From contig OZ242376.1 of the NCBI GenBank assembly GCA_965209085.1, forward strand, positions 672,001 through 736,000: DNA of 64,000 bases, read 5' to 3'. The notes beneath the pieces are model-generated. The model did no database searches. It had not been told where the DNA came from and saw nothing but the letters and a program-made list of their open reading frames with translations. The stretch is from Nitrosopumilaceae archaeon. Its GTDB lineage: Archaea; Thermoproteota; Nitrososphaeria; Nitrososphaerales; Nitrosopumilaceae. Shown here one piece after another: positions 3,576-61,746 of this stretch. Positions within the stretch are counted from its first letter, which is position 1; each line of letters begins with the position of its first letter. A program made the translations under genes and the position numbers.

Positions 3576-3626
3576 GAATTAATGTACTATAACTACCATA
3601 TATCATATGATCATTAATAGAGTTTA

Positions 3627-5047
3627 TCCATGCGAATACTTTAAAGATTTCTTGATTTTCGGTGTCATGCGATATGGCTTTCGCTATGTGTCTGTTTCTA
3701 GTCAAAAGATACAAGACATCTATCCATTCGGGATTTAATCCCACAACCATCTTCATCTACATGTTAAAGATTACCGCAGTTATGCCGCCGAGGTAACATC
3801 CCCAAAGTCTAACCCGCGGTTTGTTGCTTTAACTATGATGTATTTCAAATTCACTCCTATCCTTTAGCATACGAAATATGACATCAAGCATCTTGGCCGC
3901 TGCTGCAACTTTGGCCTTGGATGATCCTCTCTTTTTTGCAAGACGCCGGTAAAATTCAGAAATGTTCCTCTCTGATGAAAATTGGACATGAGTGGTATAC
4001 TGCCGCTCATAAATAAATGCAATTTTTGAAGCATGTTAACATTAGGACTAGGCGTGAATAATTGCAGTTACTTTTGAGTGGCAGTATAATAGCTTCCACC
4101 AGTGCTCACCGCATCATCCTACTTCCTCTTTTTGTTATATGTCCGTGATGGACCACATCTCTGAATTGTGAACAGATGGGGCAAGACCAGCATATGATGT
4201 GAGTTGTTTTGGTTCAGAAAACCTCTCAATTCCATCAATTTCTGCTGCCAGTATCAATGAAATAAAATCCACTATGCCAGGTATTGTCTTGAGCAACATT
4301 GCATCCTTGTTTGAACAGGATGCGTTGTGCACCTTTATGTTTGAATCTGCAATTTTTGTATTAACGAATCCAATAGAATCCAAATATCCGTTTATACGAT
4401 AGTCCTTTAGAAAACGCAGTTTTTATTGTATGCAAGCGTAAATGTTACTCCAAAGATCTTTATCCTTCCCTGTAACAAAATTCCATATATTTTGTTTTTT
4501 TAGAGTTGTTCTTGTCTTGACAAGACTGTTGCGATATTGTACAAGTTGCTGTTGTTCCATTATGTCCTTGTTTGAGACATGACAGAGGGATATGTATCTG
4601 CAGCGTAATATGTCTGCAAGTGTTACAGCATCCCTCTTGTCAGTCTTTTTCTTGGATGCGGCGATGATTTTTGTAGCCCAATGATTTGACAATACGACAT
4701 CATAACCCATCTTGTCTGTCATGCATCGATTTAGTCTGTATCATACGGATGAAGATTCCATGACGATTTTTGCATTTTCAGGTACGCTTGATCAGATGAA
4801 TAATCTGATGGACTTGTTTTCATTTTCAATCCTCTCATTAAAAATCACTTTAGCTTTTTTATCCATCATTGCAATTTGGAGAAATTTCTTGTGAACGTCC
4901 ATTCCCACAAACATATCCTTCCCAGAATATGTGGTAATCTGTTTGTTTACATTTGGATCTTTTTTAGATGATTTACGTCTCGGTAATACGGATCGTTTGA
5001 CATTCTGACAACCATCGATGGTCTTAGAATCTTTCTTCACATATGGT
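3627..5047 (-). mobile_element. IS110 family A copy 1 (frameshifted transposase)
   Basis: Ends ACCATATGTG / TTCGCATGGA flanked by TA. ORF pieces 4792-5040, 4423-4722 and 4135-4383 match the intact 373-aa copy at 21763-22884. Confidence 0.9.
3998..4086. mobile_element. 89-bp IS630-derived MITE inside IS110-A1
   Basis: TA duplication, TIRs TACTGCCGCTCA / TGAGTGGCAGTA, and AATTGCAGTTACTTTTG shared with the end of the IS630 at 60618-61733. Confidence 0.8.
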
Positions 5048-5123
5048 TATGCATAATGAGCCAAATTCACAATTTTTACGAATAAAAATGACCGATTTGA
5101 ACGATTATGTATACGATCTTTTG

Positions 5124-10081: not shown

Positions 10082-11413
10082 TCCATGTGAATATTTTTTA
10101 AACGTTTCTTGCTTTTTTGTGTCATGCGGTATGGCTTTCGCTATGTGTCTGGTTCCAACCAAAAGATGAAAAGACATTTACCCATTCGGGATTTAATACC
10201 ACAACCATCTTTATCCACATGTTAAAGCTTACCGCAGTTATACAGCCGGGGTAACATCCCCAAAGTCTAACCCGCGGTTTGTTGCTTTAACTATGATGTA
10301 TTTCAAATTCACTCCTATCCTTTAGCATACAAAATATGACATCAAGCATGTTGGCCGCTGCTGCAACTTTGGCCTTGGATGATCCTCTCTTTTTTGCAAG
10401 ACGTCGGTAAAATTCAGAAATGTTACTCTCTGATGCAAATCAGACATGGGTGGTAACAGCTTCCACCAGTGCCCACCGTATCATCCTGCTGCCTCTTTTT
10501 GTTATATGTCCATGATGTACCACATCTGCTGAATTGCGAACCGATGGGGCAAGACTCGCATATGATTTGAGTTGTTTTGGTTCAGAAAACCTCTCATTTT
10601 CATCAATCTCTGCTGCCAGTACCAATGAAATAAAATCACCTATGCCAGGTATTGTCTTGAGCAACATTGCATCCTTGTTTGAACAGGATGCGTTGTGTAC
10701 TTTTATGTTTGAGTCTGCAATTTTTGTATTAACGAATCCAATAGAATCCAAATATCCGTTTATACGGCAATCCTTTAGAGAACGCAGTTTTCTATTGTAT
10801 GCAAGCGTAAATGTTGCTCCAAAGATCTTTATCACTCCCTGTAACAAAATTCCATGTATTTTGTTTTTTAGAGTTGTCCTTGTCTTGATAAGACTCACGA
10901 TATCGTACAAGTTGTCGTTGTTCCACTATGTCCTTGTTTGAGACATGACAGAGGGATATGCATCCACACCGTAATAGGTCTGCAAGTGTTACAGCATCCC
11001 TCTTGTCGGTCTTTTTCTTGGATGCGGCGATGATTTTTGTCGCCCATGGATTTGACAATACGACATCATAACCCATTTTATCTGTCATGTATCGATATAA
11101 TCCGTACCATACGGACGAAGATTCCATTACGATTTTTGCATTTTCAGGTACACTTGATCTGAAGAATCGGCTGATGGACTTGTTTTCATTTTCAATCCTC
11201 TCATTAAAAATCACTTTGGCTTTTTCATCCATCATTGCAATTTGGAGAAATTTCTTGTGAACGTCCATTCCAACAAACATATCCTTCCCAGAATATGTGG
11301 CAATCTGTTTGTTTACATTTGGATCTTTTTTAGATGATTTACGTTTCGGTGATACGGATCGTTTGACATTCTTACAACCATCTGTGGTCTTAGAAGCTCC
11401 CTTCACATATGGT
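10082..11413 (-). mobile_element. IS110 family A copy 2 (frameshift and premature stop)
   Basis: TA cores at 10080-81 and 11414-15. ORFs 10792-11406 and 10440-10910. Confidence 0.92.
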
Positions 11414-14327: not shown

Positions 14328-14399
14328 AGACCGTATGCATAATCGTTCAAATCGGTCATTTTTATTCGTAAAAATTGTGAATTTGGTTCATTATGCATA
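14328..14399. mobile_element. MITE (72 of 78 bp) with IS110-A3 starting in its right TIR
   Basis: AGACCGTATGCATAATCG...CATTATGCA-TA. The missing tip (AGGTCC) lies inverted at 10074-10079. Confidence 0.85.
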
Positions 14400-15730
14400 A
14401 CCATATGTGAATAGAGCTTCTAAGACCACAGATGGTTGTAAGAATGTCAAACGATCCGTATCACCGAAACGTAAATCATCTAAAAAAGATCCAAATGTAA
14501 ACAAACAGATTGCCACATATTCTGGGAAGGATATGTTTGTTGGAATGGACGTTCACAAGAAATTTCTCCAAATTGCAATGATGGATGAAAAAGCCAAAGT
14601 GATTTTTAATGAGAGGATTGAAAATGAAAACAAGTCCATCAGCCGATTCTTCAGATCAAGTGTACCTGAAAATGCAAAAATCGTAATGGAATCTTCGTCC
14701 GTATGGTACGGATTATATCGATACATGACAGATAAAATGGGTTATGATGTCGTATTGTCAAATCCATGGGCGACAAAAATCATCGCCGCATCCAAGAAAA
14801 AGACCGACAAGAGGGATGCTGTAACACTTGCAGACCTATTACGGTGTGGATGCATATCCCTCTGTCATGTCTCAAACAAGGACATAGTGGAACAACGACA
14901 ACTTGTACGATATCGTGAGTCTTATCAAGACAAGGACAACTCTAAAAAACAAAATACATGGAATTTTGTTACAGGGAGTGATAAAGATCTTTGGAGCAAC
15001 ATTTACGCTTGCATACAATAGAAAACTGCGTTCTCTAAAGGATTGCCGTATAAACGGATATTTGGATTCTATTGGATTCGTTAATACAAAAATTGCAGAC
15101 TCAAACATAAAAGTACACAACGCATCCTGTTCAAACAAGGATGCAATGTTGCTCAAGACAATACCTGGCATAGGTGATTTTATTTCATTGGTACTGGCAG
15201 CAGAGATTGATGAAAATGAGAGGTTTTCTGAACCAAAACAACTCAAATCATATGCGAGTCTTGCCCCATCGGTTCGCAATTCAGCAGATGTGGTACATCA
15301 TGGACATATAACAAAAAGAGGCAGCAGGATGATACGGTGGGCACTGGTGGAAGCTGTTACCACCCATGTCTGATTTGCATCAGAGAGTAACATTTCTGAA
15401 TTTTACCGACGTCTTGCAAAAAAGAGAGGATCATCCAAGGCCAAAGTTGCAGCAGCGGCCAAGATGCTGGATATCATATTTCGTATGCTAAAGGATAGGA
15501 GTGAATTTGAAATACATCATCGTTAAAGCAACAAACCGCGAGTTAGAGTTTGGGGATGTTACCCCGTTGCATAACTGCGGTAAGCTTTAACATGTGGATA
15601 AAGATGGTTGTGGGATTAAATCCCGAATGGATAGATGTCTTTTTACCTTTTGACTGGAAACAAACACATAGCGAAAGCCATACCGCATGACACAAAAAAG
15701 CAAGAAACCTTTAAAAAGTATTCACATGGA
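14400..15730 (+). mobile_element. IS110 family A copy 3 (same lesions as copy 2)
   Basis: ACCATATGTG...TTCACATGGA flanked by TA. ORFs 14407-15021 and 14903-15373. Confidence 0.92.
15527..15730 (+). ncRNA. Predicted bridge/seek RNA in the IS110-A3 right end
   Basis: Target loop AGAGTTT-[GGGG ATGTTA CCCC]-GTTGCATA inside stem ACCGCG/TGCGGT. Donor loop ATGGTTG-[GGGAT TAA ATCCC]-ATGGATA. Transcript ends unknown. Confidence 0.7.
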
Positions 15731-15732
15731 TA

Positions 15733-16184
15733 ACTCTAAAGGCGAATATTTTTCTAGTTTTGATTTCTACAAGAAAGTGTATCTTGATAAATCCGTGCCG
15801 TACGTTCCATTTTTCACGTATCCGTTCGCCACGATCGTTTAGCTGCAGGTAGATAACTGTCAACTGTCAGCATGTGCAATCGTTGTCAGTTCTGTACACA
15901 TGCTCATCATAATTTAGCGTTACATCAAGTGCATTTATCCTTCTGCACATGGTGGTGTGATCTGATACATCATCTCTTAGAATGCTGCGTGCTATTCCCT
16001 CGTATGCCCTGTAAGAGATGCCCGTACACGATTTGATTAATGCAAGCGTTTCAAACATGCTGTATGTATACTTGAAACGTCTGCCGTTTTTGTTCTTGTT
16101 TTTTGCTCTGATTTGGATCCTCCAGACTCGGGATTTTTTAAAATTCAAAAATTTACCGCGTGCGATGCATCTGTGATCACTCAT
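15733..16184 (-). pseudogene. N-terminal half of the split IS5-family transposase
   Basis: GRRFKYT...ISYRAYEG...DHTTMCRRIN, then (after frameshifts) LVEIKTRKIFAFRV up to the IS110 junction. Confidence 0.75.
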
Positions 16185-16402: not shown

Positions 16403-16945
16403 ATGCCGATTAATGTGTCATCCCAAACGATTCTTGGACAAAAATGTTTGCGAGAATTAAACATATGGTCAATAAACGATTCACTAGACGTTATTTCGTT
16501 CCTAAATGACAGGATTTACCAATTGGATCTTCGAATACGTAAAAAAGCAGAAAATGGCAAATATGCAAAAATCCTTATCACCATGCCTGGAATATCATAC
16601 TATTCGGCACTTTCTATATCTGCAGAGATTGTAGACATTGACAGATTTGAAAACCATGAACACTTGTGTTCATATGCACGATTGATTCCAAGAGTGTATC
16701 AATCTGGGGAAAAGCTAGAGATGCGCGCTGTAGGAAAACGTGGAAGTCAAATGCTCAGCTGGATGACTGTACAATGCATGTTTGTTCACAGAAAAAATTG
16801 TCCAAATTCGGTAATCACCATACACTACAACAAGATAGCAGAAAGACGCAACAAATCAAAGGCAAAGATCGTAGCGGCTAGAAAGATGATGAAAATCATC
16901 TATGTAATGCTAAAAGAAAACACATCTTTTAGACATGATGGATAA
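16403..16945 (+). pseudogene. C-terminal fragment of a divergent IS110 transposase (family D)
   Basis: TMPGISYYSALSISAEIVDIDRF...LIPRVYQSG...AKIVAARKMMKIIYVMLK. The DEDD domain is missing. Confidence 0.8.
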
Positions 16946-21558: not shown

Positions 21559-21762
21559 TCCATGTGAATACTTTTTAAAGGTTTCTTGCTTTTTTGTGTC
21601 ATGCGGTATGGCTTTCGCTATGTGTCTGGTTCCAACCAAAAGATAAAAGACATCTATCCATTCGGGATTTAATCCCACAACCATCTTCATCTACATGTTA
21701 AAGCTTACCGCAGTTATGCAGCCGGGGTAACATCCCCAAAGTCTAACCCGCGGTTTGTTGCT
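21559..21762 (-). ncRNA. Predicted bridge/seek RNA of the intact IS110-A4
   Basis: Target loop AGACTTT / GGCTGCATA and donor loop ATGGTTG / ATGGATA, with the same hairpins as the other copies. Confidence 0.7.
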
Positions 21763-22884
21763 TTAACGATGATGTATTTCAAATTCACTCCTATCCTTTA
21801 GCATACGAAATATGATATCCAGCATCTTGGCCGCTGCTGCAACTTTGGCCTTGGATGATCCTCTCTTTTTTGCAAGACGCCGGTAAAATTCAGAAATGTT
21901 ACTCTCTGATGCAAATCGGACATGTGTGGTAACAGCTTCCACCAATGCCCACCGCATCATCCTGCTGCCTCTTTTTGTTATATGTCCGTGATGGACCACA
22001 TCTGCTGAATTACGAACCGATGGGGCAAGACCCGCATATGATTTGAGTTGTTTTGGTTCAGAAAATCTCTCAACTCCATCAATCTCTGCTGCCAGTATCA
22101 ATGAAATAAAATCACCTATGCCAGGTATTGTCTTGAGCAACATTGCATCCTTGTTTGAACAGGATGCGTTGTGTACCTTTATGTTTGAGTCTGCAATTTT
22201 TGTATTAACGAATCCAATAGAATCCAAATATCCGTTTATACGGTAATCCTTTAGAGAACGCAGTTTTCTATTGTATGTAAGCGTAAATGTTGCTCCAAAG
22301 ATCTTTATCCCTCCCTGTAATAAAATTCCATGTATTTTGTTTTTTAGAGTTGTTCTTGTCTTGACAAGACTGTCGCGATATCGTACAAGTTGCCGTTGTT
22401 CCATTATATCCTTGTTTGAGACATGACAGAGGGATATGTATCCGCATCGTAACAGATCTGCAAGTGTTACAGCATCCCTCTTGTCGGTCTTTTTCTTGGA
22501 TGCGGCGATGATTTTTGTCGCCCATGGATTTGACAATACGACATTATAACCCATTTTATCTGTCATGTATCGATATAGACCGTACCATACGGATGAAGAT
22601 TCCATTACGATTTTTGCATTTTCAGGTACGCTTGATCTGAAGAATCGACTGATGGACTTGTTTTCATTTTCAATCCTCTCATTAAAAATCACTTTGGCTT
22701 TTTTATCCATCATTGCAACTTGAAGAAATTTCTTGTGAACGTCCATTCCAACAAACATATTCTTCCCAGAATATGTGGTAATCTGTTTGTTTGCATTTGG
22801 ATCTTTTTTAGATGATTTACGTTTCGGTGATACGGATCGTTTGACATTCTTACAACCATCTGTGGTCTTAGAAGCTCTCTTCAC
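21763..22884 (-). CDS. IS110-family recombinase (373 aa)
   Basis: DEDD residues GMDVHKK, MESS, KTDKRD. Tnp domain TIPGIG...YAGLAPSVRNSA...GHITKRG. Confidence 0.95.
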   Translation of the reverse strand: MKRASKTTDGCKNVKRSVSPKRKSSKKDPNANKQITTYSGKNMFVGMDVHKKFLQVAMMDKKAKVIFNERIENENKSISRFFRSSVPENAKIVMESSSVWYGLYRYMTDKMGYNVVLSNPWATKIIAASKKKTDKRDAVTLADLLRCGYISLCHVSNKDIMEQRQLVRYRDSLVKTRTTLKNKIHGILLQGGIKIFGATFTLTYNRKLRSLKDYRINGYLDSIGFVNTKIADSNIKVHNASCSNKDAMLLKTIPGIGDFISLILAAEIDGVERFSEPKQLKSYAGLAPSVRNSADVVHHGHITKRGSRMMRWALVEAVTTHVRFASESNISEFYRRLAKKRGSSKAKVAAAAKMLDIIFRMLKDRSEFEIHHR

Positions 22885-23288
22885 ATATGGTTATGCATAA
22901 TCGTTCAAATCGGTCATTTTTATTCGTAAAAATTGTGAATTTGACCCATTATGCATAAAGTCTATTGTGAAAGAGAATCACCCACTGCAGTGTGAAAACA
23001 AAATTACGCAGGATCTGCTGAATTCTGTCTCAAATCTCTATGATAGCGCATATCAGGGAATACATGACGCGTTTCCACAAGCAAATTCGATTATACCCTG
23101 TAAAAAATATAAAAACAAAAAGAGAACCCGTGAACAAATATTTCACAATAAATTACTCTCAAGCGTACGTGTGCGGATAGAACATGTTTACAGCAGAATT
23201 AAGAAATTCAACATACGCCGAGATGTATTCCGATCCCGATTTGATAAATATGATGGAATCGTGCAGGTTGTAAACGGATTAATAAATT

Positions 23289-24643
23289 AGACCTTATGCA
23301 TAATTAACCAAAAAATCAATTTTGACAAATCGAAAGATCTATGATCTAGTATCACATTCGTACAGCATGTGTGCCCCAGACAAGCGTATAATCGCCCAGC
23401 AAACAGAGATGATCTCCAAGCTTGAAGCAGAAATTCAACACTACAAAAAAACGATACATGATAATGAGGTCGAAAAGCAACAATCTGCCTACGAATATTT
23501 GAACCACATAATTGATGATGACAATTATTTGTACGGGACGACTGGAATGAACCGTGAAGAGTTTGAATGGATTCAGGAACGGTTTGAAAAAGTTATCGAA
23601 TATTCGCCCAAGGTCCCCCGCTTTTCAGATTATGTCGACGATCCTGGAAACACCTGTATTCTCACTGCATCTCAAATTTTGTTTGTCACACTGTGCCGCA
23701 AACGCAACAATCCTAAACAGGAATTGCTTGCGGCCATTGCAGGCGTTGATCAGAGCACCATTAGCAGATATCTGACCTTTTCTGATGAATTGTTGATGAA
23801 TATTCTTCCAACGGCTAAGAATATTGGTGCTGCAATACGGACAATACGTACAAGCGAGTTGTTTAAAAAATTCGTACCCGGTAGAGGCGGCGGCGAGCTG
23901 TATCTTGATGCCACGTTTGTACAGGTTCAAAGACCGCAGGAAAACCAAGAGGTAGTATACTCTGGAAAGCGTAAGAGGCACGTCTACAACGTACAGATAA
24001 CCTCAAACAAAGACGGGTTGGTACTTGACATTGGCGGACCTGAAGATGGCTCAGTACATGACATGGAGGTACTGCGGCGTAATCCGCCAAATTTTGGCAA
24101 ATGGACCGATGGCATGAAAAACTCTGATACAAAAAAAGAGCGCCAAATTATGCTATATACTGACAAGGGATATCTGTCCGTGGAAAAAGACTATCGGGGC
24201 ATTATCTCAAAGCAGCCGTACAAAAAACCAAAGGGTAAGGGATTGACAGAGACGGAACGTGAATACAGCAAGAGAATCAGTCGTAAGCGCATAAAAGTAG
24301 AGCATGCCATAAACCGGCTCAAATGGTTCCGCAGAATGAGTGCCGTATATGATGATACAATGGATGCGTTTTATACAGAAATCCAAGTGGTTACAGGACT
24401 GACCAATCTGCACATCATGTTAAAGGATCGCAAGTATATCGAACCGTTGGAAAAAGTTTGCGCTCAAATCAAGTAGCACATCTTTGTGCATACAGTCACG
24501 CATAATATTCTGCTTTTTGTCATGCATATGATATTTTGATTTATTTTGTTGTCTGCTTGAAGGTTTTAGGCCATGTGTACTTTGATCATGACAGCGTCAT
24601 AGTCGGAACCGTATGTCTCAGTGATTGATTATGCATAAGGCCT
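23289..24643 (+). mobile_element. IS5-family element, likely autonomous partner of the 78-bp MITE
   Basis: TIRs AGACCTTATGCATAAT / ATTATGCATAAGGCCT, the same as the MITE TIRs, and ATT duplication (23286-88, 24644-46). Confidence 0.92.
23322..24476 (+). CDS. IS5-family transposase (DDE_Tnp_4 type)
   Basis: LDATFV, YSGKRKRH, GSVHD, YTDKGY, RIKVEHAI. Confidence 0.9.
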   Translation: MTNRKIYDLVSHSYSMCAPDKRIIAQQTEMISKLEAEIQHYKKTIHDNEVEKQQSAYEYLNHIIDDDNYLYGTTGMNREEFEWIQERFEKVIEYSPKVPRFSDYVDDPGNTCILTASQILFVTLCRKRNNPKQELLAAIAGVDQSTISRYLTFSDELLMNILPTAKNIGAAIRTIRTSELFKKFVPGRGGGELYLDATFVQVQRPQENQEVVYSGKRKRHVYNVQITSNKDGLVLDIGGPEDGSVHDMEVLRRNPPNFGKWTDGMKNSDTKKERQIMLYTDKGYLSVEKDYRGIISKQPYKKPKGKGLTETEREYSKRISRKRIKVEHAINRLKWFRRMSAVYDDTMDAFYTEIQVVTGLTNLHIMLKDRKYIEPLEKVCAQIK

Positions 24644-56322: not shown

Positions 56323-56590
56323 ATGCTTGATATCATATTTTGTATGCTAAAGGATAGGAGTGAATTTGAAATACATCATAGTTAAAGCAACAACCCGCGG
56401 GTTAGACTTTGGGGATGTTACCCCGGCTGCATAACTGCGGTAAGCTTTAACATGTAGATGAAGATGGTTGTGGGATTAAATCCTGAATGGATAGATGTCT
56501 TTTCATCTTTTGACTGGAAACAGACACATAGTGAAAGCCATACCGCATGACACAAAAAAGCAAGAAACCTTTAAAAAGTATTCACATGGA
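56323..56590 (+). mobile_element. IS110 family A copy 5, right end only
   Basis: MLDIIFCMLKDRSEFEIHHS* plus a complete right end, followed by TA-AACTCT (MITE tip). Confidence 0.88.
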
Positions 56591-56599
56591 TAAACTCTA

Positions 56600-58167: not shown

Positions 58168-59145
58168 TAACCATATGTGCCCAAGAAATCAAGGAATTCA
58201 GATGGTTGCTTAAATGATAAATCCGTATCAGTCAACAAACGCAAGCCCAAAAACAAAGCTCAAAATGCAAACAAAAACACTAGGGTGTTTAAGAGCAAGT
58301 CCATGTTTGTTGGAATTGACGCCCATAAAGAATTTCTCCAGATAGCAGCAATTGACGGCAAAGGCAAACTGATCTTAAACACGCGTGTTGAAAACAGACA
58401 CGCGGACATTAGAAAGTTTTTCCAAACAAGCATACCCGAGGGTTTAAAGATGGTAATGGAGTCATCATCTGTCTGGTACGGACTGTTCCGATACATGACC
58501 GACAGACTGGATCTTGATGTGATTCTCTCAAACCCATATCAGACAAAGGCCATTGCCGCATCCACTAAAAAAACAGACAAAGTTGATGCGCAAATTTTGG
58601 CAAATTTGCTGCGAGGAGGATATATCAACGAGTGCCATGTTCCAGGTAAAAAGATTGTAGAGCAAAGACAACTGGTCCGATACAGGCACAAACTTGTACA
58701 GGCGAGAACAAATATGAAAAATTCCATACATGGAATACTGCTCCAAAAAGGAATTAAAATTCCAGGACGTACGTTTTCGTACAAATACATTGCAAGCCTT
58801 TAAGCCATAAACGACTATCGAATAGACGGTTTTCTTGCATCCATTGGCCTTTATGATAATCAGATACAAAAAGCCAATGTACTGATCTACAAGAGTGCAC
58901 GTACAAGCCGGTATGCCGATATACTCAAAACTGTCCCCGGAATTGCAGATTTTACGGCATTAACGATTGCATCTGAGATTGATAATGTTGAGAGATTCTC
59001 TGATCCTGAAAAGCTAAAATCATACGCAGGACTTGCACCATCGGTCCGCAATTCTGCCAATCTCGTACATCATGGACACATAACAAAAAGAGGAAGCAGA
59101 ATGCTCAGGTGGGTTCTAGTTGAGGCAATACACTCGCACGTACTA

Positions 59146-60255
59146 TACCTGCAAGCATAAATTCGTTTAAAAATCCACCATTACACAGTAGCAACGTTTT
59201 TTGATCACGACATCGGAACCAATTCATGCAAGTTAGCAATGAGGATCTCCTCCAGGCTTATAATGACTGCAAAGATTCTCGCGTAGAAACAAGACTGCAT
59301 GCGATGTGTCTGGTGCAAATACGCGGCTACGACATACAAGAAACCGCGGATCTCGTATTCCGAACGTACCAGTTTGTACACAAATGGCACGTTCGATACG
59401 AAAAATACGGACTCATAGGCCTGGAGGAAGGGTCCTGATGCGGACGACCGCCAAAGATTTCACCAAATATCATGATGCAGATAGAAAAAAAGTTTACAAA
59501 AATCGGAACCATTACGCTTCCAAAGCAGGTCCGTGATTACATTAAAAATATGACAGGAATAACATATCATATTACGCATATATGCAGACTGATGCGGGAA
59601 TGGAAACTAAAATCAAAGGTACCGCAAAAAATACACGCTAATGCCTGCATCATACGCTGAGTGTTATGCATGGTATAGGCGCATAATGTGCATTATTGCC
59701 CACGAAATGGCAAGAGGGACAAAGATCTTTGTCCAGGATGAGACCATAGTGAGCAGTGATGGTAAACCGACTAAAAAATACTGGTGTAATGAGAATGAAC
59801 GTCCCATCTATACATGGAAGGGGGATCGCAGAAAATTCATAACATACGGAATGATTTCAGTTTCAGGGGAGAAATTTTTTAGATCATACGACAAGTTTGA
59901 TGGTCTGACGTTTTTATGATACATAAAAGATGCAGTAGCAAAATACGGCAGAATACTGGTAATCGTAGACAGAGCCCGGCAGCATAAAACGATAAAGCTT
60001 GAAGAATACATCAAAGAGAACAAGGATAAGATTCAGATAGAACACCTCCCAAGAGCATCACCACAACACAACACCATGGAGACGATCTGGCTTGTCGCCA
60101 AGCAGGATATGGATCATTCAGAATATTATCCCCAACTTGAAGAGAAGAGGGTTAGGTTTATGGAATATCTGCGTACGAGAAAACTGCCGGGTAATGTCAT
60201 TGATTATTTTAAACCAGAGTGGGTTAATTTTTAAACGAATTTATGATCTGGGGTA
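59146..60255 (+). mobile_element. IS630-family element, degenerate
   Basis: TA duplication and TIRs TACCTGCAAGCATAAATTCGTTTAAAA / TTTTAAACGAATTTATGATCTGGGGTA. QDET, DRARQH and SPQHNTMETIW motifs with internal stops. Confidence 0.88.
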
Positions 60256-60410
60256 TACATGCACCAAAAAGTGACATTTCAATATTTTACAAGCGGCTTG
60301 CAAGAAAGAGAGGAAACTCCAAGGCTGCAGTTGCAGCAGCTGGAAAAATGCTAAAGGTGATTTACTGGTTACTAAAGGAGAATCGGGATTTTGAACAAAA
60401 TTACAGTTAG

Positions 60411-60615
60411 TTGCACGACCGCGGCGCAGTATATGGAGATAGTGCTCCGAGATTGTAACTGCGGTAAGCTCTAACAAGTGGATGAAGATGGTTGTGGGGA
60501 TAATGCCCCGAATGGATATATGTCTCTCATTCTTTAATTGGAAAAATAGCCCCTAGTGGATACTGTACAAAAATATGGAAAAACGCAAGGAATACTTAAA
60601 AAAGAGGCACATGGA
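60411..60615 (+). ncRNA. Predicted bridge/seek RNA of IS110-B
   Basis: Same scaffold as family A with compensatory changes (GGAG/CTCC for GGGG/CCCC). Identical donor guides, different target guides (GCAGTATAT / GAGATTGTA). Confidence 0.7.
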
Positions 60616-60617
60616 TA

Positions 60618-61733
60618 TACTGCGGATCAAAAGTAACTGCAATCTACAGCTTTTCTCATAACAAAATCCATTATTGATACTTTGAATCGTACAGTTCTAA
60701 AATATTCTGAAATTGTATATTTCATATTCTCAAATGTTTCATAATATTCAGTGACGGCCAACGCACGTTTGGCCTGATACCAACATTCTTCAACGGCACT
60801 CAGAAACGGTGAACTTGTAGGGAAAAACAAAAGCTTTACCTCATCTTTATTCTCAGATATATATTTTTTAATAATTTTGGATTTTCTGTGTTGTGCAGCT
60901 CTATCCGTAATTATGCAAATTTTTCCAAATTTTTGATGAGCCATTTTTAAAAACTTGAGAAATGATTTTGCATCAAACAAATCATAGCTTGCAAACATCT
61001 GCCTGCCATCAGATAAGAATAATCCAAAGACAACAACTTTTTTGTGAAAACCTGTGGATTTTACGTAACAATTTTTGCTTATTTCAATCCAGAGTTTCTT
61101 GCCGGATAATGAATCGTATTTTATTATACATTCATCCTGAACGCCTACTGCAAATCCACGCTCTTCAAGTAGGCGTATTTGACGCCTAGTGTTTTGCGAC
61201 CAGTTGTAGCAGACTGATGCCGGCGCTGCATTGACATGAATTCTTTTTGGAGCCTTGCTGACAAATGAGAATTTGTGAAGTCTTTTTCTGATGTTTGATA
61301 TGTGATATTTTACTTCGGTTTTGCGTTTAATGTTGTGCATTACCTGTTTTGGATCAACTGAACCGTTCTCTCGTCTTGTCATGTCAATAATTTTTTTAAA
61401 TCGTATATTTGATAATAATAAAGGCCTGCCCGATTTGGGCAGGGTTTTAAGACCGTCTAATCCAAGCTCGTCATATCGTTGCATGCATTCTTTGCCCCAG
61501 TTGTAGCTTTTCATCAATAATTCAGAAGCTTTAGCTATGGATATGTTTTGGTATTTGACCATGCTTACAAGATATATTTTTGATATCTCTTTTCTGTCTT
61601 TGACATGCCTGCTTGCATTATACAGTTCCTGATGTTCTTTGTTCATGATTGATTCATACCCGAGGTGATCCAAATATCTTGCGGTTACATTGTGTCTAGA
61701 GTCATAAATTGCAGTTACTTTTGCGTGTCAGTA
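60618..61733 (-). mobile_element. IS630-family element, intact
   Basis: TA flanks and TIRs TACTGCGGATCAAAAGTAACTGCAAT / ATTGCAGTTACTTTTGCGTGTCAGTA. Confidence 0.9.
60627..61673 (-). CDS. IS630 transposase
   Basis: KSGRP, VQDEC, TDRAAQH, SPFLSAVEECW. Confidence 0.9.
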   Translation of the reverse strand: MDHLGYESIMNKEHQELYNASRHVKDRKEISKIYLVSMVKYQNISIAKASELLMKSYNWGKECMQRYDELGLDGLKTLPKSGRPLLLSNIRFKKIIDMTRRENGSVDPKQVMHNIKRKTEVKYHISNIRKRLHKFSFVSKAPKRIHVNAAPASVCYNWSQNTRRQIRLLEERGFAVGVQDECIIKYDSLSGKKLWIEISKNCYVKSTGFHKKVVVFGLFLSDGRQMFASYDLFDAKSFLKFLKMAHQKFGKICIITDRAAQHRKSKIIKKYISENKDEVKLLFFPTSSPFLSAVEECWYQAKRALAVTEYYETFENMKYTISEYFRTVRFKVSIMDFVMRKAVDCSYF

Positions 61734-61746
61734 TAGTACGCAGGAT

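What the first reader, a model, noticed from the sequence alone, without database searches (positions are those of the whole stretch)
15527..15730. Readable bridge-RNA architecture in the right end of archaeal IS110 elements, with a fixed donor loop and a variable target loop
Seen: six right ends (3627-, 10082-, 15527+, 21559-, 56385+, 60411+) share two hairpin-capped internal loops. Loop 2 (ATGGTTG..GGGATTAAATCCC..ATGGATA) matches both strands of the predicted circle junction CACATGGA-TA-ACCATATG, and its guides are the same in families A and B. Loop 1 sits in stem ACCGCG/TGCGGT around a hairpin with a compensatory change (GGGG/CCCC in A, GGAG/CTCC in B), and its guides differ by family and match insertion flanks. 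Known: IS621 bridge RNA and IS1111 seekRNA guide IS110 recombinases. Inference: this is an archaeal, right-end-encoded system with a palindromic TA core, right-guide-before-left-guide order in both loops, and an intact 373-aa recombinase at 21763-22884.
Basis: partly seen in the sequence, partly recalled or inferred. Interest (0 to 1): 0.92.

Follow-up and report, generated by a model that had tools for sequence, protein, structure and literature searches.

The report
Archaeal IS110 element's bridge RNA
The stretch is the right end of a jumping gene in an archaeon, and it encodes a small two-loop guide RNA that appears to tell the element's recombinase where to insert; this kind of RNA is already known from bacteria, so this is a new archaeal example and not a new mechanism.

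Summary
Window 14400-15730 is one copy, with a broken transposase gene, of an IS110-family insertion sequence. About 125 nt just after the transposase stop codon (15522-15646) fold into P1, a target loop (P2/P3) and a donor loop (P4/P5). A covariance model finds 83 such RNAs in 19 of 151 genomes of the same archaeal family. Stems are 94.9% paired against 37-44% when slid, and 15 of 21 pairs show compensatory changes. The donor-loop 3' strand equals the last 7 nt of the right end in 54 of 62 elements, in four co-varying variants. The target-loop 5' strand pairs with the right flank (run >=8: 31 of 61 own flanks, 43 of 1824 foreign). The 3' strand matches the left flank plus TA. The recombinase has both Pfam domains and aligned DEDD+Ser residues.

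Right-end encoding and "top-strand guide first" are the published IS1111-type arrangement (Siddiquee 2024; Durrant 2024), not new. No RNA or circle-junction data could be obtained.

New details: the targets are the terminal repeats of other transposons. A conserved TATA-like box in the right end lies exactly 30 nt from the GTG start once the ends are joined, which suggests an archaeal junction promoter. An unexplained same-sense copy of the donor guide sits inside the left end.

The parts
14398..14399 (.). Left copy of the TA core (last two bases of the left flank ...ATTATGCA-TA)
   Evidence: Flank comparison of 12 left ends; sequence
14400..15730 (+). Family-A IS110-family element, the copy of the finding (1331 bp, guide variant A2)
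   Evidence: blastn against the genome; the boundaries are where copies stop being alike
14400..14409 (+). Left terminal repeat ACCATATGTG. The GTG at 14407-14409 is the first start of the long ORF
   Evidence: Nearly invariant across families; ORF start
14430..14439 (+). Left-end internal same-sense copy (AGATGGTTGT) of the donor-loop 5' strand; unexplained
14407..15526 (+). Transposase pseudogene: frameshift near 14903-15021, in-frame TGA near 15371, stop TAA at 15524-15526
   Evidence: ORFs 14407-15021 and 14903-15373; split match with 1 TGA
15522..15646 (+). Predicted bridge RNA / seekRNA: P1 15522-15529 with 15584-15591, target loop domain, donor loop domain, then a T5 run at 15640-15644
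   Evidence: cmsearch 119.6 bits; RNAalifold; pair counts
15535..15581 (+). Target-binding loop domain: P2 15535-15540/15576-15581; 5' guide AGTTAGAGTT(T) 15541-15551; P3 hairpin 15552-15565 closed by U15551.G15566; 3' guide TTGCATAA(C) 15567-15575
   Evidence: Guide-to-flank matches; P3 compensatory changes
15596..15640 (+). Donor-binding loop domain: P4 15596-15600/15636-15640; 5' guide AAGATGGTTG 15601-15610; P5 hairpin 15611-15625; 3' guide AATGGATAGA 15626-15635
   Evidence: The 3' guide equals the right-end tip in 54 of 62 elements; left-end variants co-vary with the 5' guide
15668..15681 (+). Third small hairpin ATAGC-GAAA-GCCAT, conserved; role unknown
   Evidence: Alignment A1
15704..15717 (+). 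BRE-like GAAACC plus TATA-like box TTTAAAAA (15710-15717), 23 nt before the end of the TA core
   Evidence: 25 of 36 distinct right ends carry the box at this offset; spacing argument
15723..15732 (+). Right terminal repeat CACATGGA (to 15730) plus the right copy of the TA core (15731-15732)
21559..22891 (-). Intact family-A copy (guide variant A1): transposase 21763-22884, RNA 21642-21771
10082..11413 (-). Family-A copy with frameshifted transposase and an A1 right end: RNA 10166-10295
3618..5067 (-). Degenerate family-A copy: RNA 3708-3837
56323..56599 (+). Solo right-end fragment of family A: RNA 56377-56506
58170..60615 (+). Family-B copy (about 65% DNA identity to A), interrupted by about 1.1 kb of other DNA: RNA 60402-60531; TA cores at 58168-58169 and 60616-60617
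14328..14399 (.). Small MITE-like repeat whose terminal inverted repeat (...ATTATGCATA) is the insertion target of this copy
23289..24643 (+). IS5-like element ('ISX') whose terminal repeats are the main target of family A
   Evidence: Paired ends; Pfam DDE_Tnp_4, DDE_Tnp_1, HTH_Tnp_4
60618..61737 (-). IS630-like element (DDE_3). Its end TACTGCGG..., together with the adjoining TA, is the target of family B

Best explanation
The region is the right end of an IS110-family insertion sequence with IS1111-type architecture in an archaeal genome.

The RNA. The first ~125 nt after the transposase stop codon encode a bridge RNA (seekRNA) with two internal loops.
[quoted passage not shown] The 3' strand (4-7 nt including TA) pairs with the bottom strand to the left.
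- In the second, donor-binding loop, the 5' strand pairs with the left-end top strand (TA-ACCAT). The 3' strand pairs with the right-end bottom strand (ATGGA-TA).

Inferred mechanism, by analogy with IS621 and IS1111 elements. The DEDD+Ser recombinase binds this RNA. It excises the element as a circle with a RE-TA-LE junction and inserts it at a TA flanked by the guide-matching bases, with no duplication other than the TA.
- Family A is thereby aimed at the terminal inverted repeats of an IS5-like element and its MITE.
- Family B is aimed at the TA next to the end of an IS630-like element.

Further inference. Joining the ends puts a BRE/TATA box of the right end exactly 30 nt in front of the GTG start at left-end base 8. 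This gives an archaeal-style junction promoter for a leaderless transposase-plus-RNA transcript.

Shown: the sequence anatomy, the stem covariation and the guide-to-DNA covariation. Inferred: expression, RNA ends, binding, circle formation and the promoter.
For: Protein:
- PF01548 and PF02371 are both present.
- NCBIfam NF033542 'IS110 family RNA-guided transposase' scores 223.9 bits against a cut-off of 140.
- D48, E95, D134, D137 and S293 align with the corresponding residues of the IS621 and ISCro4 transposases.

Structure:
- RNAalifold on 11 diverse sequences gives 25 pairs, 13 with compensatory changes.
- A model built from them finds 83 matches in 19 of 151 genomes of the family.
- On the 76 distinct rows, 94.9% of cells are paired against 36.8-44.1% when slid. 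15 of 21 pairs and 172 cells change on both sides, and 0 of 500 shuffles reach this.
- P3 occurs as GAGG/CCTC (12), GGGG/CCCC (8) and GGAG/CTCC (7) among 40 distinct sequences.

Donor loop:
- The 3' 7-mer equals the right-end tip in 54 of 62 elements: ATGGATA 40, ATAGATA 12, ATGGGTA 1, ATAGGTA 1.
- Left-end variants GTCAT and ATCAT go with AUGAC/AUGGC and AUGAU.

Target loop:
- A pairing run >=8 is found in 31 of 61 own flanks and 43 of 1824 foreign ones. A Watson-Crick run >=7 is found in 26 of 61 against 8 of 1824.
- For the 3' strand, >=4 contiguous matches next to the core occur in 12 of 27 own and 3 of 508 foreign pairs.

Insertion geometry:
- Left flank plus right flank of a filled site is identical over 162 nt to an uninterrupted ISX end.
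- 2 of 6 IS630-like ends are empty and read N-TA-TACTGCGG.

Promoter:
- The box is at -23..-16 in 25 of 36 distinct right ends and in <=1 at any other offset.
- Genome-wide, TATA-like boxes peak 30 nt before the first ATG of long ORFs (28 against a background of 3.15 per offset).
- The frame from the GTG is open in the 13 families whose left ends I read off.
Against: - No RNA run holds the sequence, so no transcript, RNA end or circle junction was seen.
- The copy of the finding is a pseudogene, and its right flank is one A shorter than in the other A2 copies.
- 19 of 36 distinct target guides have a best run under 8 with their flank. Some of these are truncated RNAs or possibly mis-set ends.
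- Within family A the association is weak. All 4 A2 copies lie at CTCTA flanks. Of the 11 A1 copies, 6 lie at the matching GTCTA/GTCCA and 5 do not (4 at CTCTA, 1 at CTTTA).
- The donor 5' guide has a mismatch to the left end in the L031 family (AAGGUU against AACCAT), in L002 and in L029. In several families its last two bases do not pair with the TA core.
- The register between the target 5' guide and the core differs by 0-2 nt between families.
- The alignment used for the pair counts was fitted to the model.
Confidence: 0.85

Rival explanations
1. Only the first loop is a guide, as in a seekRNA in the narrow sense. The second loop is a protein-binding scaffold, and its likeness to the element's ends merely reflects the terminal inverted repeats, which the recombinase reads itself.
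For: - Siddiquee et al. (PMC11187229, section 9 read) describe only target matches in IS1111 seekRNAs.
- The left end is almost invariant (TAACCAT in most families), so its covariation with the 5' strand rests on few changes.
- Several families have mismatches between the 5' strand and the left end.
Against: - The 3' strand tracks the G/A change in the right-end tip without a single crossed case among the 52 elements with ATGGATA or ATAGATA.
- The rarer variants ATGGGTA and ATAGGTA also agree.
- The loop has the same build as the target loop: a U.G-closed hairpin, the top-strand guide 5' and the core included.
Confidence: 0.08
2. The structure is a 3'-UTR, terminator or protein-binding element with no guide role. 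The matches to flanks arise because the elements always sit in the same repeated sequences.
For: - Families A and B do sit in repeated DNA, namely the ends of other transposons.
- A T5 run follows P4.
- No expression data were obtained.
Against: - 17 of 36 distinct guides from several genera, with unrelated targets, pair with their own flank over 8-11 nt.
- Single-base differences track each other, for example L015, L025 and L058 and L017 against L083.
- The matching bases lie exactly in the unpaired strands between co-varying stems.
- The target repeats exist without the element at about 30 sites.
Confidence: 0.04
3. The family is extinct in this genome. The RNAs are relics, and the pattern records past activity only.
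For: Most copies carry stops, frameshifts or truncations. The copy of the finding is one of them.
Against: - Two copies at different loci have uninterrupted 373-aa frames that are 99% alike, with identical RNAs.
- Empty target sites remain.
Confidence: 0.03

Closest known systems
IS1111-group elements of the IS110 family with their seekRNA / right-end bridge RNA (ISEc11, ISPa11, ISKpn4; Siddiquee et al. 2024, PMC11187229; Durrant et al. 2024, PMC11208160)
   Same: - The left end is short and the right end long, with the non-coding RNA directly downstream of the transposase.
- The top-strand match lies 5' of the bottom-strand match.
- The ends carry terminal or sub-terminal inverted repeats.
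- Insertion is site-specific without a target duplication.
- A junction promoter is expected when the ends are joined.
   Different: - The host is archaeal.
- The donor loop is a simple internal loop, whereas Durrant et al. note a multi-loop donor site in many IS1111 orthologues (passage read).
- The motif at the catalytic serine reads GL-P----SA instead of the SG/TG/TA given by Siddiquee et al.
- The inferred junction promoter is of the archaeal BRE/TATA type with a leaderless GTG.
- The transposase has a basic N-terminal extension of about 40 aa.
- Placement of the protein inside the IS1111 clade was not tested.
IS621 bridge RNA and recombinase (Durrant et al. 2024; structures 8WT6 and others; Hiraizumi et al. 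2026, PMC13626964)
   Same: - There are two internal loops, target loop first and donor loop second.
- Each loop has two strands that read opposite DNA strands on either side of a shared 2-nt core.
- The aligned DEDD and Ser residues are present.
   Different: - The RNA lies in the right end, not the left.
- The guide order within each loop is reversed. In IS621 the 5' strand reads the bottom strand with 8-9 nt (passage read); here the 5' strand reads the top strand with 8-11 nt.
- The core is TA, not CT.
- Protein similarity is weak (E 2.6e-06).
[quoted passage not shown]
   Same: The target is the terminal inverted repeat of another transposon, at a fixed position and in a fixed orientation.
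   Different: Here the targets are an IS5-like element with its MITE and an IS630-like element in an archaeon. The paper itself was not read.

Membership tests
IS110 family (transposase) | N-terminal DEDD/RuvC-like domain (PF01548) plus C-terminal Transposase_20 domain (PF02371) | tested here: met
   98.2 and 81.3 bits, both above the Pfam cut-offs. NCBIfam NF033542 scores 223.9 bits against a cut-off of 140.
IS110 family (transposase) | Catalytic D-E-D-D and the serine of the G--P----SG region | tested here: met
   D48, E95, D134, D137 and S293 align with the equivalent residues of IS621 and ISCro4. That these are the catalytic residues of IS621 is recalled and comes from no call.
IS110 family (element) | Site-specific insertion with no target duplication beyond a shared core dinucleotide | tested here: met
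   A filled site minus the element and one TA equals an uninterrupted ISX end over 162 nt. Empty IS630-like ends read N-TA-TACTGCGG. This compares paralogous copies, not the same locus.
IS1111 group | Long non-coding right end, short left end, non-coding RNA downstream of the transposase | tested here: met
   The left end has 7 nt before the GTG. The right end has 204 nt after the stop codon. The RNA model matches lie there in all families.
IS1111 group | Top-strand target match located 5' of the bottom-strand match in the RNA | tested here: met
   criterion from PMC11187229, sections 9 and 12.
IS1111 group | Sub-terminal inverted repeats of 7-17 bp | tested here: inconclusive
   Left CCAT(AT)GTG against right CACATGG: 7 bp with a 2-nt indel, one base from the core. 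This is at the lower limit.
IS1111 group | Transposase inside the IS1111 clade; motif GL-P----S(t)G; length 330-350 aa | tested here: inconclusive
   The motif reads GLAPSVRNSA (SA). The protein is 373 aa, or about 330 without the N-terminal extension. No reference IS1111 proteins were on hand for a tree.
Bridge RNA / seekRNA | Structured RNA with internal loops whose strands co-vary with target and donor DNA on opposite strands around a common core | tested here: met
Bridge RNA / seekRNA | The RNA is expressed, binds the recombinase and is required for recombination; changing the guides changes the target | not testable with these tools
   No RNA run was listed. Only natural guide variants with matching flanks were seen.
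Rfam families | Match to a curated RNA family | tested here: not met
   No match at gathering score in the window, and none up to E = 10 in 15450-15760.

The most novel reading that the evidence does not exclude
Beyond being an archaeal IS1111-type bridge system, the element may carry two features not described for the family.

(1) A junction promoter in archaeal form. A BRE/TATA box in the right end comes to lie exactly 30 nt before a leaderless GTG at left-end base 8 only after circle formation.

(2) A third, RNA-read donor site. The donor-loop 5' strand has a same-sense twin at left-end bases 29-41, and the two co-vary in their variable last 2-3 nt. The RNA could therefore pair better with the bottom strand of that internal site (8-10 bp) than with the terminus (5-7 bp). 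Alternatively, the twin acts as a fold-back or autoregulatory mimic that gates transposase translation.
Probability: 0.25. Interest if true: 0.7.

Novelty: new member of a known kind. Interest (0 to 1): 0.5.

Why it matters
- It extends RNA-guided bridge recombination, so far studied in bacterial elements, to a family of archaea. A compact RNA of about 125 nt and dozens of natural guide variants are linked to readable targets. This is a ready-made data set of natural reprogramming and a possible source of new recombinases.
- It shows these elements preying on the ends of other transposons.
- It suggests how the circle-dependent promoter switch of this IS family has been rebuilt with archaeal promoter parts.
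- It does not reveal a new mechanism.

Tried and rejected
- RNA evidence: the look-up of sequencing runs listed no RNA holder, so expression is untested.
- Read laying on four contig-only runs gave no joint across the element and no circle junction. Loose ends at 14398 and 15732-15733 were simply other copies' flanks. Contigs cannot show rare forms.
- Rfam gave no family.
- The sigma-70 and intrinsic-terminator scan does not apply to archaea and showed nothing above shuffles.
- Guide variant against flank type within family A: all 4 A2 copies are at CTCTA. Of the 11 A1 copies, 6 are at GTCTA/GTCCA and 5 are not. This is too weak to count alone.
- I tried to fix one register between the target 5' guide and the TA core. 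It differs by 0-2 nt between families, and TAA makes the crossover ambiguous in family A, so 'TA core' stays an inference.
- I tried to explain the last two bases of the donor 5' strand as core-binding or as handshake guides (concept from PMC13626964, passages read). No parse fitted all families.
- A fold-back hairpin between the left terminus and the internal twin is strong in family A (11 of 14) but only 5-7 bp in others (read).
- No complementary partner of the donor 5' 8-mer with <=1 mismatch exists elsewhere in 12 elements, apart from two chance-like hits.
- Rows left out. 21 of the 83 RNA matches had no right-end motif under my search pattern and were dropped. One more, containing an N, was dropped. 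Left ends were found for only 27 distinct guide/flank pairs.
- Literature: searches found no paper describing bridge RNAs of Nitrosopumilus-like archaea. Supplementary tables were closed, for example Durrant et al. Supplementary Table 5 with predictions for all ISfinder IS110 elements. These may already list archaeal IS1111-type RNAs.
Full report
**What is there**

The window is bases 672001-736000 of a single-contig genome of 1.69 Mb. Its SSU rRNA scores 1472 bits on the archaeal model and 1107 on the bacterial one. The stretch 15527-15730 is the non-coding right end of a 1331-bp repeat at 14400-15730.

A blastn of this repeat against the genome gives 27 matches:
- about 17 right ends and 12 left ends of a family I call A (92-100% identity);
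- several copies of a family B (about 65%).

Copies stop being alike at TA|ACCATATGTG on the left and at CACATGGA|TA on the right.

The ORF of the copy at 21763-22884(-) is open for 373 aa. It carries PF01548 and PF02371. It passes NCBIfam NF033542 'IS110 family RNA-guided transposase' at 223.9 bits against a cut-off of 140. D48, E95, D134, D137 and S293 align with the matching residues of the IS621 and ISCro4 transposases of the PDB.

The copy named in the finding is broken. It has two overlapping ORFs, 14407-15021 and 14903-15373, and an internal TGA. Only two copies in the genome are uninterrupted, this window's and one at G000 156522-157640.

**The RNA**

Eleven right ends from six genomes, whose transposases share 41-61% amino-acid identity with the window's, align well. 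RNAalifold predicts five stems:
- an outer stem P1, whose 5' strand contains the transposase stop codon;
- P2 and a hairpin P3 enclosing a first internal loop;
- P4 and a hairpin P5 enclosing a second.

Of the 25 predicted pairs, 13 show compensatory changes.

A covariance model of the first ~130 nt behaves as follows:
- It finds 83 matches in 19 of 151 genomes of the same taxonomic family, in 9 of 27 genera.
- In a sample of the phylum, it matches only that family: 3 of 19 genomes besides G000, and 0 of 131 genomes of other families (stricter filters).

On the 76 distinct rows of the model alignment:
- 94.9% of cells are standard pairs, against 36.8-44.1% when the partners are slid by 1-3 columns.
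- 15 of 21 pairs and 172 cells change on both sides.
- None of 500 shuffles reaches any measure.
- The alignment was fitted to the model, which favours it. The slid controls and the independent MAFFT/RNAalifold result speak against an artefact.

P3 was not in the model. Parsed separately, it reads GAGG/CCTC in 12, GGGG/CCCC in 8 and GGAG/CTCC in 7 of 40 distinct sequences. Both hairpins are closed by a U.G pair. No Rfam family matches.

**Donor loop**

The 3' strand (AAUGGAUAGA in A) has the sense of the right-end tip. Its 7-mer equals the last 7 nt of the right end plus TA in 54 of 62 elements for which my pattern found a right end. The four matched variants are ATGGATA 40, ATAGATA 12, ATGGGTA 1 and ATAGGTA 1. 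The eight others differ by one or two bases.

The 5' strand (AAGAUGGUUG) is complementary to the left-end top strand TA-ACCAT. The left end is nearly invariant. The few variants agree with the guide: GTCAT with AUGAC/AUGGC, and ATCAT with AUGAU. The L031 family, L002 and L029 each have one mismatch.

**Target loop**

The reverse complement of the 5' strand reads into the right flank.
- Family A2: AAACTCTAAC against TA-AACTCTAAT.
- Family A1: AAAGTCTAAC against TA-AGGTCTAAT, with two wobbles.
- Family B: TATACTGCGC against TA-TACTGCGG.
- Families of other genomes show their own sequences, some differing by single co-varying bases: L031, L025, L058 and L015; L017 against L083.

Over 61 elements with 36 distinct guides:
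- A pairing run of >=8 (G.U allowed) is found with the own flank in 31 of 61 and with flanks of unrelated guides in 43 of 1824.
- A Watson-Crick run of >=7 is found in 26 of 61 against 8 of 1824.
- 17 of the 36 guides reach 8 with at least one of their elements.

The 3' strand has the sense of the left flank and ends in the conserved UA-A. At least 4 contiguous matches next to the core occur in 12 of 27 own pairs and 3 of 508 foreign pairs.

So the right-side guide is long and the left-side guide short. The top-strand guide comes first in both loops.

**Comparison with the literature**

- In IS621 the 5' strand of each loop reads the bottom strand with 8-9 nt and the 3' strand reads the top strand with 4-7 nt. 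The RNA lies in the left end (PMC11208160, passages read).
- Durrant et al. predict a bridge RNA in the right end of 93.0% of IS1111 elements. They add that many have the donor-binding bases in a multi-loop (passage read).

Here the donor site is a plain internal loop.

- Archaeal IS110 recombinases are known in number: 662 in Vaysset et al., preprint 10.1101/2024.06.21.599552 (passages read).
- I found no description of their RNAs in this archaeal group.
- The one named relative among the best 120 listed is annotated 'IS110 family transposase [Nitrosopumilus sp. D6]', at 53% identity.

**What the elements aim at**

The left flanks of family A are themselves repeats. A genome-wide listing of the motif shows the following:
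- ...ATTATGCAT(A/G)-(A/C)(A/G)(G/C)TCT is the terminal inverted repeat of a 1355-bp element, at window 23289-24643.
- Its ORF has DDE_Tnp_4, DDE_Tnp_1 and HTH_Tnp_4. IS5-family models score best but below cut-off.
- It makes 3-bp ANT duplications.
- The same repeat ends a 66-84-bp MITE, one copy of which (14328-14399) hosts the element of the finding.

The two guide variants of family A fit the two different ends of this element, AGGTCT and AACTCT. About 30 uninterrupted sites with TGCATA remain.

Joining the flanks of one filled site gives a sequence identical over 162 nt to an uninterrupted end elsewhere. The insert is therefore the element plus one TA. This is a paralogous site, not the same locus.

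Family B sits at the TA next to the end TACTGCGG... of a 1.12-kb IS630-like element with a DDE_3 domain. 4 of its 6 such ends are occupied and 2 are empty. The left flanks are unrelated, which fits the weak left-side guide match of B.

In a sister genome another family hits the same repeat at a TA four bases further in. Targeting the inverted repeats of other transposons is known for IS1111-family members. I saw this only as a reference title and did not read the paper.

**A junction promoter in archaeal form (inference)**

- All families share a (T/C)TTA(A/T)AAA box, preceded by purines, at -23..-16 from the end of the TA core. 25 of 36 distinct right ends match a strict pattern there, and at most one does at any other offset.
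- The left end ACCATATGTG is nearly invariant. The frame from its GTG (base 8) is open in the 13 families whose left ends I read off. tblastn matches to the window's protein begin at its residues 1-3 in the closer families.
- Many database homologues are called at about 371 aa.
- With the ends joined through one TA, the first base of the box lies exactly 30 nt before the GTG.
- In this genome, TATA-like boxes upstream of the first ATG of 1468 long ORFs peak at 29-31 nt: 28 at 30, against a background of 3.15 per offset.
- The left flanks of the integrated copies have no such box at that place (read).

This is the archaeal counterpart of the bacterial junction promoter. That promoter is described for ISEc21 in PMC11187229 section 12. 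A Pjunc of ISEc11 is named only in a reference title I saw.

**Unexplained**

Every family has, at left-end bases 29-41 (14430-14439 here), a same-sense copy of the donor-loop 5' strand (AGATGGTNN). It lies in frame in the N-terminal extension.
- The variable last 2-3 nt agree between the two sites in most families, also where they do not complement the left terminus.
- The 8-mer has <=1 mismatch in 10 of 12 families.
- The 9-mer matches >=8 of 9 in 13 of 25 own pairs and 48 of 398 foreign pairs.

I could not decide between three readings: an extra RNA-read site, a fold-back that hides the start codon in read-through transcripts, and a protein-binding mimic.

**Other points**

- The copies at 14400-15730 and 10082-11413 are 99.4% alike in left end plus transposase but 92.3% in the right end. 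Each right end is about 94-98% like other members of its own guide variant. Right-end modules are therefore exchanged between copies.
- No RNA run was available. Contig-only runs showed no circle junction.

**Verdict**

The best reading is a bridge RNA / seekRNA of the IS1111 type serving an IS110-family recombinase (confidence 0.85). It is a new archaeal member of a known kind, with some features worth testing: the archaeal junction promoter, the left-end twin and transposon-end targeting.

Noticed in passing
window 23289-24643; also G000 at about 11 further paired sites: An IS5-like element of 1355 bp ('ISX', ORF 23322-24476 with DDE_Tnp_4, DDE_Tnp_1 and HTH_Tnp_4). It has conserved terminal repeats ...ATTATGCAT(A/G)AGGTCT and ...AACTCT and 3-bp ANT duplications. 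Many ends read TGCATG, which lacks the TA used by family A.
   Followed up: partly
window 14328-14399 and about 20 other places in G000: A 66-84-bp MITE-like repeat with the same terminal repeats as ISX, found in both orientations. It is the commonest host of family-A insertions.
   Followed up: partly
window 60618-61737; G000 1091052, 1361698 and others: A 1.12-kb IS630-like element (DDE_3), six copies, flanked by TA. Four of the six TACTGCGG ends carry a family-B insertion. The other end (TACTGACAC...) carries none.
   Followed up: partly
window 14430-14439 (and left-end bases 29-41 of every family, e.g. L052, L076, L039): A same-sense twin of the donor-loop 5' strand lies inside the left end. 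It co-varies with that strand in its last 2-3 nt. It remains unexplained.
   Followed up: partly
window 14400-15730 versus 10082-11413: The two inverted copies are 99.4% alike up to the target loop but only 92.3% in the right end, and they carry different guide variants. This points to exchange of the RNA module between copies.
   Followed up: yes
G000 558887-561648: A family-A copy is split by an ISX insertion (559680-561057), so the two elements insert into each other.
   Followed up: no
window 56323-56599 and G000 959195-959471: Solo 277-nt right-end fragments with a complete RNA region and identical flanks; probably a duplicated segment.
   Followed up: no
window 25359-51206: A giant ORF of 8615 aa built from tandem repeats of 162, 306 and 612 nt.
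   Followed up: no
window 16403-16945: A fragment of a different IS110-family transposase (Transposase_20 domain only, 36% identity to family A).
   Followed up: no
L026 (G015), right end: A tandem duplication of 51 nt repeats the right-end tip CACATGGATA. The outer flank fits the target guide better than the inner one.
   Followed up: no
L015, L025, L031, L058 and others (G001): A sister family in a genome of the same genus targets the same ISX-type terminal repeat at a different TA (TA-TGCATAAGGTCT). Single-base guide changes match single-base flank changes.
   Followed up: partly
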